Notes under the pieces: model-generated
Database searches by the model: none
The model's input: the letters and a program-made list of their open reading frames with translations, nothing else
Told to the model about the DNA's origin: nothing
Shown: in pieces, positions 2,781-63,787 of the stretch
Numbering within the stretch: position 1 is the first letter of the stretch
Layout: every line of letters starts with the position of its first letter
Position numbers and translations under genes: made by a program
NCBI GenBank assembly: GCA_964016885.1
Contig: OZ024743.1
Span: 122,140,001-122,204,000, forward strand
DNA length: 64,000 bases
Source: Eledone cirrhosa
Lineage: Eukaryota
Reading direction: 5' to 3'

Positions 2781-2938
2781 TATTGTTATACTTTGGGAGG
2801 GTCATGTTGCCAATAAGAAACACACGCACCAGTTGCTTTCACTTCAATTTAATTTAATATATATTTATAAATTTACAAATTTATAAATTTCTGGTTGGTT
2901 GGTTGGTTCCACAACCAGATAGTTGTTTATATATATAT

Positions 2939-2983
2939 AGTCATAGTTCTTTCGTCACACACTCTGTGACCTCTTCAGTGACT
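2939..2983 (-). ncRNA. Minimal type I hammerhead ribozyme (PLE left arm)
   Basis: Exact reverse complement of 5403-5447. Confidence 0.8.
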
Positions 2984-3283
2984 GGGGATTTCTTTCTTCG
3001 TTTCTGTGCCTTTCCTTTTCTATCCTACGCCATTTTGTTTGTGTGTGGGTTGCGTGCTCAGTTTGCGCATGCGCCACATCCGGGTGTCTGTGTGTGTTTG
3101 TGTTCATTTTTCTATTTTATATTTTTATATTTATATTTGTTTGTTTATTTATTTATTTATTGTTGTTGGTTGTTTGTTCTATGTGTGTGTGTGTTTTCAT
3201 TTTGTCTTGTGTGTGTTTTCATTTTGTGTGTGTTTTCAATTGTAAGTTGTTTATATATGTGTGTGTGTGTTTTCATTTTGTCC

Positions 3284-4516
3284 TTAATTGTAAGTTGTGA
3301 TGTTGCTGTTCCACTCATATTTTCTATTTAATTTTGGTTTTAATTCTTTTATGCTTACTGCCTCTGTAATTTGCCTAAACATTGCGTCTTTCTTGTGTGT
3401 GGATTCTATTTTTATTTCTATGCTCTCTAATTTACCCCTGTGTTCTATCTTAGCATGTTGGTAGAGCACAGATGATTCTTTACTATCTTGGAGGTCTCGC
3501 CAGTGTTCATTTATTCGTTCCCCTATACTACGAGCTGTCTCACCTATGTACACTATATTTTTGTTTCTACATTGTCCCTCAGTACATCTTATGCTATATA
3601 CTACATTTCTAGTTTTACAGTTAATATGGGGGCTTATTTTACAGGTTATACATTTCTTATCTATACATGAGGGTCTTTGGAACGGGTATCGTCTTGCTAA
3701 TAAGTGTTTTTACGGAGGTACCAGGTCTTTCTACTATCTTAATATTGAGATTATGTTTCTTTAGGGCCCTTCTAAATTTGTAGGCTAGTTCACCTCTAGG
3801 GGTTGTATTGATGAACATTACACTCTGGTATTTATTGCTATCATACCATGAGTTTATTCTATTGGCCTTGTTCTTAGTTCTTTCTATTCTATTCCAAAAT
3901 TTGCTCCTATACAAGGGCAGGTCCCATTTATGTCATTATTTACCATTTTTTCCCATTTGGTTCTGGCTCCTTTATACACTCTGATTCTATCTCTCTGATT
4001 GTAGCCAGAGAACTGCATACGGTGGATGAAGTGCTGTATGTGTCTCTCTAGTTCTTCGGGGTTGCACATGCGGGACACATTTCTCATCACCCGTATCAAA
4101 TCCGCAATCAGTATGTTGATTTTGGTATGGTCCGAAATAGCCGAGTTTCGGTGGATCAGATGTTTGGAAGTCATGGGTTTGGCATAATGGGAATGGAGGA
4201 TTTGTTTTTGGTTGTTAATAGTATCTAACCAGAGCTCTGTGTCTAGTACAGGTAATCGATGGTTGGGGTGTCTACTTGGGTAGTCTATAGTAACTCTAAT
4301 GCTCTGGTGGATGGAGTTTGCTATTTGCTGGATGCTTTCCATTGTGTTTTTCTCAGGTTCCTGACTGTTCTTTAGTGGGGGTGTCTTAACTACGATGTTT
4401 ATATCATCTACGTAGCGGGAGTACATTATCAGGGTTAATCTGTCTTCTAATTGTTCTTTAATTGTTCTTTAATTGTTCTTTAATTGTTCTTTAAGTTTTT
4501 GTTTAAGTCTACTGTC
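3284..4516 (-). pseudogene. PLE polyprotein C-terminal half (RT motif C, thumb, Zn linker, GIY-YIG), frameshifted
   Basis: ORF pieces 3884-4426 (YSRYVDDI, LPVLD, YAKPM), 3657-3914 and 3284-3553 join through two frameshifts. An 11-bp unit (TAATTGTTCTT) is repeated four times at 4448-4491. Confidence 0.88.
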
Positions 4517-62000: not shown

Positions 62001-62625
62001 GTAATATACGTGAACGACAAAGCATAAATGAATTGAGAGAGAGACTGAGCATAAGAGGAATCAAATGCTGCGTGCAGGAGAGGCGGTTACGCTGGTATGG
62101 ACATGTGATGCGTATGAAGGATGACAGCTGCATAAAAAGGTGCAGAGCACTAGAAGTTGATGGAAACCGCGGAGTGGGGAGACCCAAGATGACTTGGGAT
62201 GAGGTGATAAAAGCCGACCTTACCCAACTACACCTCTCAAAGTCAATGACACACGACCGTGACTTCTGGCGTCACGCAGTAATACAGGGTACCCGACCTC
62301 CCATGGGTACATGCTGAAGCATATAAACAATATGCCCCCCCCCCCCCACCGCAAGGTGGTCGTGGAGGTGCCACGGCAAAAAAGCACCCAGCCCACACTG
62401 TAAAGTGGACGTGTAGGCGCCACGAAAAAGCACCCAGCACTCACTGTAAATGAGGTTGGTGTTAGGAAGGGCATCCAGCTGTAGAAATCAAGCCAGATCA
62501 GTTCCTGTATGAGCAAGGCATGGTCAGCCGACCAGACACTGCCCACAACAGGACAACCCGTCTAACCCATGCTAGCGTGGAAGAACGGACGTAAAACGGT
62601 GATGATGATGATGATGATGATGATG
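59026..62625 (+). mobile_element. RTE LINE (family B) + SINE-like 3' segment, flanked by ACTGT TSD
   Basis: ACTGT at 59021-59025 and 62626-62630; removing the insert restores a CR1 tail colinear with 51835 and 57095; (GAT)n tail. Confidence 0.85.
59198..62317 (+). CDS. Intact RTE-clade LINE protein: APE endonuclease, reverse transcriptase, C4HC3 finger, C-terminal domain (1039 aa)
   Basis: GTINVGS, CVQETRW, AYAP, GDFNGH, LDFIL; FVDLEKAFD, GVHQGSVLSP, LLYADD; RRLRWYGHVMRM, GRPKMTW; no stops. Confidence 0.96.
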   Translation: MNLRATKHPREAPTQRPSPTSVDKCPKLRVGTINVGSMKGRAGEIVEMLERKEVDVCCVQETRWRGGSARVLVGKSQCYKFFWVGNDDGMGGVGILLADKWVDKVISVYRVNARIIKLRLVLNKTITTIISAYAPQSGLPDELKDRFYESLIHTTALTDDKDFLIIAGDFNGHVGKHCDGFNRVHGGHGVGTRNEEGFRLLEFCDANDMSICNTNFKKPDNHLITYRSGEHSSQLDFILIRGRDRWTVVNTKAFPSEECTSQHSLVVSDLTVRTRRALKQRPTWRRKIWKLKVPSTSNRFKDILLNAYDSKEEQIETFNVEENWEFLKNNLLEATDEVCGWSKTSSRRRVTWWWNNKVDEAVKAKRQAWKEWKNGGSRVHYIETKREARRQVYLARREAEDRKFKHVLQREDQKQEVFKIARQCVRDSCDVIGEKCIRNDKGELALTSAEKKDAWKSHYDRLLNEENAWEEETLPHVDPIEGPAVQVSGSVVSKAIRDMKIGKATGPSGIAAEMLKASGSVGHTITTRIVNQVILEGAIPKDWCSSIIVNCYKGKGDALDRGNYRGIKLMDQVMKVTERVIAQLIRDRVNIDEMQFGFVPGKGTTDALFLVRQLQEKYLAKSKPLYLAFVDLEKAFDRVPRAVIWWALRKLGVDEWLVKAVQAMYRGAVSKVRIGNEYSEEFSVQVGVHQGSVLSPLLFIIVLQAITEEFKTGCPWELLYADDLALIAESMVELENKFQTWKQGLERKGLKVNMTKTKVLISRRENRTQIPSGKWPCSVCRKGVGRNSILCPKCKQWVHKRCSGISGSLIKNVGFTCSSCAETASKQPQETSTTNLWEGPVETVDSFCYLGDRISNGGGCSESTITRVRTGWKKFRELLPLLAAKGFSLRMKGRLYDACIRTAMLHGSETWALKVEDLRRLERNEACMLRWMCNSNIRERQSINELRERLSIRGIKCCVQERRLRWYGHVMRMKDDSCIKRCRALEVDGNRGVGRPKMTWDEVIKADLTQLHLSKSMTHDRDFWRHAVIQGTRPPMGTC

Positions 62626-63494
62626 ACTGTGTTCAGGTGCACTAAAATGCTGACACAAATATGAATGCTGAGCGTCTAATTCAAATTACAGAAGATATCA
62701 ATATATAAATGAAGCATATGGATCAAAAGAGTAGGAGATTGATCAAGTGGGAGTGATAGAAAATGAGAGAAAAAGAAAGACAACGAAGGAAAAAGAGGAG
62801 AAGCAGGAGAGTGGAAATAGGATGTTGTAATAGTATAAAACAGAGAGTGTCAATCAAGTAATTTAAAATAACACTGAAAATAAAAAGAAATGACAATGAT
62901 GGAGTGGACATTGTAATTGTTAGATGTCTTTTGCAATGGCATTATTGATGCCTTTCATCTTTCCGACCGATAAAATAATTAACAGTGAAATCCTGTTCCG
63001 ATCGATATAATCAACAGTTCCCTCCTACTGATATTTCTGGCCTTATGCCTATGTAAAAAGTATACAATCACAATTTTAAGTTAAAGAGAAGCAAAGCATG
63101 CATGCTGACGGTAAGCAGAAACTGAAAGAATAAGATATCAAGTGGGAGACATAAAAAGTAAGAGAGAAAGGTAAGACAAAAGATGTAAGATACAGGAACA
63201 GGTAGGAGAGTGGAAATAAAATACAGTAGCAATATGAGAGAGGAGGGGGAGGAAGGGAGAAAGAGTGTGAATAAGAGGTGGTGTAGTAAAATATATATTC
63301 AGTCTCCAGTAGTAGCAGTCTGATGACCCTGAGAGAAGCAGGTGAAACTCCAGAATAACAAGACTCAGTATTTAGCCTTTATGTAGACAATTATAATAGA
63401 CACAGAAACATGTTAAAGCAAATAAATTCCTAATTTCCTTCATGATGACGTTTTATTTTTCTTGGTGCAATACTTGCTTATATATATATATATT

Positions 63495-63787
63495 AAATAT
63501 TAATAAAATAGATGTTCTTGTGATCAATTAAATTTTATTATACATATTTCAGAGGTCATGTATCATTTTATTTTATCTGATGAGGACGTACTATTGAACT
63601 TGATTCAAGTACCTCTGAAATATGTATAATAAAATTTAATTGATCACAAGAACACCTATTTTATTAATATTTGAATTTAATATTAATAACTCTGGAAAAT
63701 ATCTTTCTGTAGAGTGATTTCAATCTACTGTAAAACTCATTCTTTGATGTACTCATTGGATGTTGTTTAACTCTTAAAAAAAAAAAA
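63495..63787 (+). mobile_element. Fold-back mini-element with hammerhead, between (TA)n tracts
   Basis: 62-bp inverted arms 63495-63556 / 63611-63672 (1 mismatch) plus a unique 3' tail. Confidence 0.75.
63570..63635 (+). ncRNA. Type I hammerhead ribozyme with extended stem II
   Basis: ATTTTAT-CTGATGA-GGAcGTACT..TGAA(CTTGA)TTCA.AGTACcTCT-GAAA-TATGTA-TA-ATAAAAT: 7-bp stem I, intact core, quasi-palindromic stem III. Confidence 0.75.

What the first reader, a model, noticed from the sequence alone, without database searches (positions are those of the whole stretch)
2781..63787. Recurring microsatellite-inserted fold-back elements carrying hammerhead ribozymes
Seen: five separate insertions (2781-5661, 9611-9933, 50222-50459, 56732-56949, 63495-63787) lie in or beside simple repeats with no obvious TSD. 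Four consist of one terminus joined head-to-head to an inverted copy; 9611 has only a short fold-back. Four carry a CUGANGA/GAAA hammerhead (one degenerate) in different sequence backgrounds. Known: PLE pseudo-LTRs carry minimal hammerheads and often integrate with an inverted truncated copy. Inference: these 200-300-bp units look like MITEs but are RNA-mobilised, ribozyme-processed PLE derivatives from several families, possibly an overlooked abundant repeat class here.
Basis: partly seen in the sequence, partly recalled or inferred. Interest (0 to 1): 0.8.

Follow-up and report, generated by a model that had tools for sequence, protein, structure and literature searches.

The report
Back-to-back Penelope retroelement insertions with hammerheads
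These five fold-back repeats are truncated, back-to-back insertions from four abundant repeat families (three linked to Penelope-type reverse transcriptase genes, one a short non-coding unit with a predicted hammerhead ribozyme), a known kind of element, and their two arms nearly always end at two different fixed sites, which likely records both cut DNA ends priming on one RNA.

Summary
The five insertions are real and are not DNA-transposon MITEs. 2781 and 50222 belong to family A, a young Penelope-like element (PLE): 4,279-bp unit, 1,226-aa RT plus GIY-YIG ORF, 23,128 exact terminus matches in the genome. 9611 is sister family B. 63495 is a Hydra-clade-like PLE (C). 56732 is a ~370-bp non-coding unit (D) with a predicted U3-A8 hammerhead; it really runs to 57770. 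Predicted hammerheads lie in four; 50222 has none. For A-C the short fold-backs are the small end of a size continuum of ordinary 5'-truncated insertions, not separate families. Head-to-head copies, a one-sided tail, (TA)n targeting and pLTR hammerheads are all published. The added detail: 47 of 48 family A two-arm insertions pair one arm from each of two fixed ends 60 nt apart, either arm can be longer (18 vs 20), both arms share one subfamily haplotype, and arms pile up at a likely RNA 5' end. This favours dual priming on one RNA over fold-back. No RNA data were available, so cleavage is untested. Verdict: new members of a known kind, with a useful mechanistic clue.

The parts
2780..4517 (-). 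Family A left arm (untailed end X at 2780): 5'-truncated PLE from inside RT through GIY-YIG, 3' UTR and pLTR; the longer arm
   Evidence: 98.8% identity to unit positions 2811-4498 of a natural full unit, L061
3884..4468 (-). RT fragment with YVDD, unique spacer of the fold-back
   Evidence: RT region of the full ORF hits RVT_1 weakly, E 2e-4, below cut-off
4435..4506 (-). 11-bp unit amplified to four copies next to the junction (one copy in the family unit)
4518..5666 (+). Family A right arm (tailed end Y, 60 nt beyond X); the shorter arm
   Evidence: 99.1% identity to unit positions 3415-4558
4518..5102 (+). CX4CX2C linker and GIY-YIG endonuclease coding part
   Evidence: Pfam GIY-YIG E 8e-05, above cut-off
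2939..2983 (-). Predicted minimal type I hammerhead, family A (left arm)
   Evidence: 8,795 exact core matches in genome
5403..5447 (+). Predicted minimal type I hammerhead, family A (right arm); predicted cleavage after 5442
9610..9904 (-). Family B untailed arm with a 10-nt duplication of its outer end; inner end at the family's pile-up site
9821..9862 (-). Predicted minimal hammerhead, family B; C11.1 is T in this copy
9905..9933 (+). Family B second arm, only 29 nt left
50222..50365 (-). Old family A tailed arm, tail partly deleted, no hammerhead
50363..50459 (+). Old family A untailed arm, starting about 9 nt downstream of the predicted cleavage site
56686..56886 (-). Family D left arm (shorter end type)
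56816..56866 (-). Decayed U3-A8 type I hammerhead of family D (core kept; helices I-III damaged)
   Evidence: sequence compared with family copies
56885..56962 (+). Family D right arm, inner part
56963..57702 (.). Stacked copies of a ~200-bp SINE-like repeat inside the D right arm (inferred later insertions)
   Evidence: the same repeat interrupts D arms at L162 and L267
57699..57770 (+). Family D right arm, outer part with tailed end, then (AT)n
63484..63556 (-). Family C untailed arm, too short to reach the hammerhead
63555..63787 (+). Family C tailed arm (end 96 nt beyond the untailed end)
63570..63635 (+). Predicted type I hammerhead, family C; long helix II with G10.1-U11.1 in this subfamily
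   Evidence: C11.1 in an older copy, L296

Best explanation
The five elements are 5'-truncated, head-to-head insertions of three Penelope-like retrotransposon families and one short non-coding unit, likely made when both ends of a cut in an (AT)n microsatellite prime reverse transcription on the same element RNA, one at each of two fixed internal start sites. Steps. (1) A tandem element is transcribed from its upstream pLTR (inferred from the pile-up of arm ends). (2) The RT/GIY-YIG protein, likely a dimer, cuts both strands of (AT)n (target shown; two-strand cutting and a predicted dimer come from PMC11167929, another clade). (3) One DNA end primes at site X and the other at site Y, 45-100 nt further 3' (pairing shown; priming inferred). 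(4) Each cDNA stops on its own, or runs off the RNA 5' end when primed in the 5' pLTR copy; that caps arms at about 270 and 330 nt in family A and makes the MITE-like size class (pile-up shown; cause inferred). (5) The two cDNA 3' ends are joined with little or no microhomology and filled in (junctions shown; pathway inferred). The hammerhead is a passenger of the pLTR in these short copies; its cleavage is predicted, not shown. D would be mobilised in trans by a PLE (inferred). Confidence is about 0.97 for PLE origin of A-C, 0.75 for D being PLE-mobilised, 0.6 for dual priming on one RNA.
For: PLE link: intact ~1,278-codon frames in 4.28-kb tandem units; B about 60% identical in protein; C continuous from RT to hammerhead in L172, L295, L296. 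End pairing: family A 47 XY, 1 YY, 0 XX of 48 adjacent two-arm insertions, binomial p 3e-13; genome-wide 10,922 of 23,128 terminus matches run on into the tail, 47%; family C 26 of 26 XY and family B 10 XY, 1 apparent YY, 1 undetermined of 12 (read by eye). Independence of arm length: X reaches further in 18, Y in 20, within 15 nt in 10. One template: 17 of 627 diagnostic sites discordant between partner arms versus 44% in shuffled pairs. Pile-up: 14 of 108 arm ends in a 19-nt window 35-53 nt before the unit origin, none in the next 35 nt (Poisson 5e-6 before correcting for the choice of window); it is seen in 0 of 14 short arms whose partner passes the site and 14 of 42 others (Fisher p 0.012). 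Flanks (AT)n-like on both sides in 44 of 48, one side in 48 of 48. D: complete descriptor in 0-1 of 3,000 shuffles for each of three copies; 16 of 51 copies have a head-to-head partner, 1 a tail-to-tail one.
Against: Haplotype sharing could also come from one dominant master at a time or from gene conversion between arms. Ten of 48 pairs have near-equal inner ends, as fold-back predicts. One C insertion (L174) has a short arm at the pile-up site with a long partner. The Fisher test treats partner arms as independent and was chosen after seeing the data. About half of terminus-anchored loci had no adjacent partner arm; some ran beyond the fetched DNA, others may be decayed or truly one-armed. 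The family A sample is the first 60 Mb of one contig, and 11 of the 48 pairs were picked because both arms held the hammerhead. For D the automatic end count was 4 XY, 2 XX, 1 YY; I read the three exceptions as a diverged tail and two internal junctions. No autonomous partner for D was identified.
Confidence: 0.62

Rival explanations
1. Fold-back (self-priming): one cDNA primed at Y folds on itself and is copied back to X; later one-sided deletions at the palindrome centre scramble which arm is longer. A self-priming model was proposed for rotifer PLEs (PMC3846280).
For: Explains X+Y pairing and identical haplotypes with one nick; 10 of 48 pairs are near-perfect palindromes, and three junctions use 16-27 nt of internal inverted repeat.
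Against: The untailed arm is the longer one in 18 of 48, by up to 3.9 kb, including window element 1; untailed arms end at the pile-up site while the tailed partner is shorter (2 cases in A, 7 in C by eye).
Confidence: 0.17
2. Dual priming on two separate RNA molecules, each held by one subunit of an asymmetric dimer.
For: Fits X+Y pairing and independent lengths; L174 pairs a run-off arm with a long arm.
Against: No mixed-subfamily insertion stands out among 48; run-off arms are missing when the partner is long.
Confidence: 0.15
3. One reading: the short units are autonomous-looking families of their own, excised by the ribozyme and copied as units.
For: True in part for D, a ~370-bp unit with a tandem copy and no ORF link in 55 loci; family C short copies have quasi-fixed size; 5 of 108 A arms end 3-10 nt after the predicted cleavage site.
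Against: For A-C the junction points I read differed from copy to copy and sizes form a continuum up to full length; the main pile-up is about 100 nt upstream of the cleavage site.
Confidence: 0.04
4. DNA-transposon MITEs (TA-targeting) or long-read fold-back assembly artefacts.
For: Inverted termini next to TA; small indels between the arms of element 1 look like sequencing error; short-read contigs did not bridge either window junction tested.
Against: Arms are unequal in a fixed way (tail on one side), vary from 30 nt to over 11 kb, and continue into RT and GIY-YIG ORFs; old copies show arm divergence; one short-read contig of run X4 holds an opposite-strand joint of family A.
Confidence: 0.02

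Closest known systems
C-terminal EN+ Penelope-like elements, Neptune/Nematis type (families A, B)
   Same: Single ORF with RT then GIY-YIG, CX2-5CxxC linker, tandem units, inverted 5'-truncated copy, one-sided tail, minimal hammerhead with an extra base between positions 9 and 10.1 (PMC8557442, PMC4209133, PMC3846280).
   Different: Tail is 60 nt rather than 30-40; ORF is long (1,226 aa) with an Asn-rich insert before RT; here the inverted copy is the rule in intact insertions and pairing of ends is near-strict.
Hydra clade PLEs (family C; Craig et al. 2021, PMC8557442 section 11)
   Same: DKT motif, CxCX5C linker, C-terminal GIY-YIG, hammerhead, (TA)n insertion.
   Different: 3' UTR of about 1.4 kb and tail of 96 nt; no intact full-length copy among the 150 scored RT matches (longest frame 750 aa).
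Poseidon_Ac of Anolis (Frangieh et al. 2024, PMC11167929)
   Same: Two internal RT start sites bracket the tail; both target strands are cut and extended; AT-rich target; predicted dimer.
   Different: That study saw no start-site difference between strands and, in the parts I read, did not analyse how the two sites pair within one insertion.
Metazoan non-LTR retrozymes (PMC7229834; bioRxiv 10.64898/2026.07.22.740005) for family D
   Same: ~370-bp non-coding unit (mussel repeats are 350-390 bp), full type I hammerhead, tandem copy, proposed PLE dependence.
   Different: D is mostly dispersed partial copies, has the U3-A8 core (reported before in Schistosoma PLE motifs, PMC4209133), and shows head-to-head arms with two end types, which the passages I read do not describe for retrozymes.
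L1 twin priming (recalled, not read here)
   Same: Both target ends prime on one RNA and give an internal inversion joined by short microhomology.
   Different: In L1 the second primer anneals at variable upstream sites so the arms do not overlap; here both arms start at fixed sites 60 nt apart and copy the same sequence.

Membership tests
EN+ PLE (families A, B) | Single ORF with RT followed by GIY-YIG endonuclease | tested here: met
   1,226-aa ORF with YVDD and GIY-YIG; B fragments about 60% identical over RT and EN
EN+ PLE (families A, B) | pLTR/tandem organisation, inverted 5'-truncated copy, tail at one end | tested here: met
EN+ PLE (families A, B) | Hammerhead motif in the pLTR | tested here: met
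   helix II differs between A and B by two paired changes on both sides
Neptune versus Nematis clade | CX2-5CxxC linker before GIY-YIG plus CCHH motif | tested here: met
   CX4CX2C linker, two Cys in the GIY-YIG core and two His in the translation; this does not separate the two clades
Neptune versus Nematis clade | RT phylogeny with named reference elements | not testable with these tools
   No named PLE references among 120 listed homologs
Hydra clade PLE (family C) | DKT in place of DKG | tested here: met
   SDKT in 5 of 10 loci scanned, a changed form in 2 more
Hydra clade PLE (family C) | CxCX5C linker and C-terminal GIY-YIG | tested here: met
   Pfam gave no hit on the broken fragments, so the EN call rests on motif reading
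Hydra clade PLE (family C) | Canonical hammerhead and (TA)n insertion | tested here: met
Hydra clade PLE (family C) | RWK motif and phylogenetic placement | not tested
   An RWR stretch lies near the N-terminus in L295; no tree with references was built
Non-LTR retrozyme (family D) | Small non-coding unit of 170-400 nt with a canonical type I hammerhead | tested here: met
   369-bp spacing of a tandem pair; descriptor and shuffles; U3 and A8 in 25 of 25 pattern matches with those positions left free
Non-LTR retrozyme (family D) | Tandem arrays of two or more complete units | tested here: inconclusive
   One partial tandem (L159/L160) and a few run-throughs; no complete dimer with two intact ribozymes among 55 loci
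Non-LTR retrozyme (family D) | Self-cleavage and circular RNA | not testable with these tools
MITE (DNA transposon) | Fixed-length symmetric TIRs and uniform size | tested here: not met
   Asymmetric ends and sizes 166 bp to 8.6 kb
MITE (DNA transposon) | Termini shared with a DDE transposase element | tested here: not met
   Termini continue into RT/GIY-YIG ORFs for A-C; for D only PLE proteins were searched
MITE (DNA transposon) | Constant-length TSD | tested here: inconclusive
   Ends lie in (AT)n; marked direct duplications in 5 of 50 versus mean 0.23 in mismatched flanks, lengths 13-32 nt

The most novel reading that the evidence does not exclude
PLE integration is by default a two-ended event on one RNA: a dimer uses both ends of the cut, one at each tail-bracketing start site, so each insertion is born as an X-arm/Y-arm palindrome; priming in the 5' pLTR copy with run-off at the transcript start mass-produces MITE look-alikes; and a retrozyme-like RNA (family D) carries the same signature, direct structural evidence that PLEs mobilise retrozymes. 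The rule would hold across two distant PLE clades in one genome.
Probability: 0.45. Interest if true: 0.62.

Novelty: new member of a known kind. Interest (0 to 1): 0.4.

Why it matters
How PLEs make tandem and inverted insertions is named as an open problem in PMC8557442, and PMC11167929 leaves the steps after first priming unvalidated. This genome holds over ten thousand insertions of one young family with intact ORFs, enough to test models by counting. In practice, short PLE fold-backs next to TA will be mis-annotated as MITEs by inverted-repeat finders. Family D bears on which enzyme moves animal retrozymes. The existence of the elements and their hammerheads is not surprising.

Tried and rejected
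DNA search of the genome with the family A terminus returned nothing, not even the window, because common words are skipped; exact patterns were used instead. Rfam gave no hammerhead match. Minimum-energy folds mostly do not give the active hammerhead fold and z-scores were weak, -1.2 to +1.3, as expected for short helix III motifs, so folding was not used as support. Run search: no RNA holder listed. Laying contigs of runs X1-X6 on two window junctions did not bridge either. TSD tests were inconclusive: shared marks may reflect the microsatellite's own periodicity; one locus has a clear direct duplication of unique sequence but also an inverted copy of it. The CTGATGA...GAAA stretch at 63320-63348 is single-copy at two mismatches and fails the descriptor; rejected. 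The CTGAGAG stretch at 56810 (+) is antisense to family D and not a core. PLE proteins A and C found no ORF continuous with D in 55 loci; four hits lay in neighbouring insertions. Two look-ups of earlier scan findings were empty.
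Full report
Setting. The window lies on contig C4 of a 3.0-Gb genome. The only named homolog of the family A protein is an Octopus vulgaris predicted protein at 70% identity, so a cephalopod host is likely (inference). All five insertions are present and lie in or beside AT-rich simple repeats.

Element 1 (2780-5666). The minus arm runs from 4517 to 2780 and the plus arm from 4518 to 5666. They code for an RT fragment and a GIY-YIG domain. The RT fragment gave 150 scored matches at 93-100% identity, many in frames of about 1,278 codons spaced 4.28 kb apart. 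One natural array (L061-L062) has three minus-strand units, the inner one truncated, joined head-to-head to a truncated plus-strand unit; the unit is 4,279 bp, copies are 99.97-99.99% identical and the ORF is 1,226 aa from its first Met. [quoted passage not shown] The 30-nt hammerhead core has 8,795 exact matches and the 32-nt terminus 23,128, with 0 for the reversed controls.

Two fixed outer ends. Arms end either at unit position +219 (X) or +279 (Y), both running into (AT)n. I merged 88 stretches of contig C1 and chained alignments into arms. Of 48 adjacent two-arm insertions, 47 are XY, 1 YY, 0 XX; the left arm is X in 26 and Y in 22. Thirty-seven lie in the first 23.4 Mb, where all first 100 terminus matches were fetched; 11 further ones were picked by hammerhead matches on opposite strands. 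Loci without an adjacent partner were left out of this count. Genome-wide, 10,922 of 23,128 terminus matches continue into the tail, close to the 1:1 that pairing predicts; this includes internal tandem junctions. Junction gaps are -3 to +5 nt in 35 of 48.

Arm lengths. X reaches further in 18, Y in 20, and 10 are within 15 nt. Of 37 insertions, 8 are 350 bp or less and 22 are 600 bp or less. Inner ends of 108 arms cluster: 14 lie at -53 to -35, none at -34 to 0, and density falls about fivefold upstream. The site carries an AA(A/G)ATGGCG motif, YY1-like by recall, so I read it as the transcript 5' end. B arms cluster at the same motif (9 ends at -40 to -52, by eye), including the window copy at 9904. 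C arms cluster at -75 to -53 from the core (33 ends by eye; these loci were chosen by a core pattern, and eight short pairs by hand). Five of 108 A arms end at +58 to +65, just after the predicted cleavage site (+55), which is not clearly above background.

One template or two. Partner arms are closer than the median between-insertion distance in 33 of 34 testable pairs (0.028 versus 0.066), and disagree at 17 of 627 subfamily-diagnostic sites against 44% in 1,000 shuffles, minimum 28%. Short arms stop at the pile-up site in 0 of 14 cases when the partner passes it and 14 of 42 otherwise. Both results fit one RNA serving both primers; serial masters and gene conversion are not excluded, and L174 in family C is a counter-example.

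The other elements. 9611 is family B: 7,885 core matches at one mismatch, PLE ORF fragments about 60% identical to A, same two end types. 50222 is an older A subfamily with both arms beginning downstream of the hammerhead. 63495 is family C: 4,956 matches at two mismatches; in L172, L295 and L296 the hammerhead and ends continue upstream through a ~1.4-kb UTR into an ORF with DKT and CxCX5C motifs, which section 11 of PMC8557442 lists for the Hydra clade. 56732 is family D: 246 matches to a terminal 22-mer at one mismatch, a ~370-bp unit that wraps onto itself and shows no ORF link. It holds a type I hammerhead with U3 and A8 in place of C3 and G8, a 4-bp helix II, a palindromic helix III with a GUC triplet and a 6-bp helix I. 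Only 3 of 30 terminus-picked D copies pass the descriptor, as the family is old and often truncated. D ends fall into two classes about 45 nt apart, and the window copy is XY once the SINE-like stack at 56963-57702 is bridged.

Hammerheads. All are predictions from sequence. Support: descriptor hits above shuffles, paired changes in helix II between A and B, and a C relative with a different perfect 8-bp helix II under the same core. Against: no Rfam match and weak folding scores. PMC4209133 reports low in vitro activity for such minimal motifs.

What is known. I read: PMC8557442 passages and section 11; PMC11167929 parts 1-2 of 4; PMC4209133 parts 1-2 of 4; passages of PMC3846280, PMC7229834 and PMC13282606; part 1 of 5 and passages of bioRxiv 10.64898/2026.07.22.740005. 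These already describe the inverted 5'-truncated copy, the tail often at one end only, (TA)n bias, pairs of minimal hammerheads 100-700 bp apart on opposite strands, the U3-A8 core, two internal RT start sites with both strands extended, and retrozymes as likely PLE dependants. I found no paper that counts X/Y pairing per insertion, the run-off origin of the short class, or these families, in searches; the library lacks most subscription papers, Repbase and Dfam could not be searched, and I opened no supplements, where PMC8557442 lists cephalopod families.

Verdict. New members of a known kind; interest 0.4, carried by the pairing rule and family D.

Noticed in passing
window 59195-62317 (+): Open frame of 1,040 aa with APE endonuclease, RT and a PHD finger, a non-LTR retrotransposon; decayed relatives at 10826-13692 (-) and 55852-56420.
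   Followed up: partly
window 1364-2783 and 5663-9611: Very long patterned (TA/TACA)n arrays of 1.4 and 3.9 kb flank young PLE insertions. Whether the telomerase-related RT or slippage extends them is open; pure (AT)n runs beside X and Y ends have equal medians, 25 and 24 nt.
   Followed up: partly
window 49954-49996: Perfect GC-rich hairpin with a TTCG loop ending in CTAG then T, resembling a Helitron 3' end (resemblance recalled, not tested).
   Followed up: no
window 56951-57713, 17202-17382, 32449-32623, 51192-51322, 55211-55489: A ~200-bp SINE-like repeat with a B-box-like motif and an (ATT)n tail; it stacks in tandem and inserts into the AT-rich part of family D arms at several loci.
   Followed up: partly
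window 13895-14007 and 56471-56571: Tail-to-tail palindromes formed by the ends of another dispersed repeat with a (TGA)n end around an (AT)n core.
   Followed up: no
window 30858-33477, 36403-36587: Dispersed repeat family with inverted copies, including a pair at 32904-33468; a possible true MITE.
   Followed up: no
window 63307-63360 (+): Hammerhead-like core with a short hairpin, single-copy in the genome at two mismatches; likely chance or a relic.
   Followed up: yes
window 44180-45801 (+): Two Ser/Thr/Asp-rich open frames that look like host exons; the first has no Pfam match.
   Followed up: partly
window 39871-40394: 40-bp minisatellite, 13 copies, 90% matches.
   Followed up: no
L061 (family A ORF, residues about 200-450) and family B ORFs: Long Asn/Thr/His-rich low-complexity insert upstream of RT, kept in frame; Asn-rich inserts at other ORF positions are described for rotifer PLEs (PMC3846280).
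   Followed up: no
window 9610-9629 and 4435-4506: Short tandem duplications at an outer end and beside a junction, suggesting RT stuttering or re-priming.
   Followed up: no
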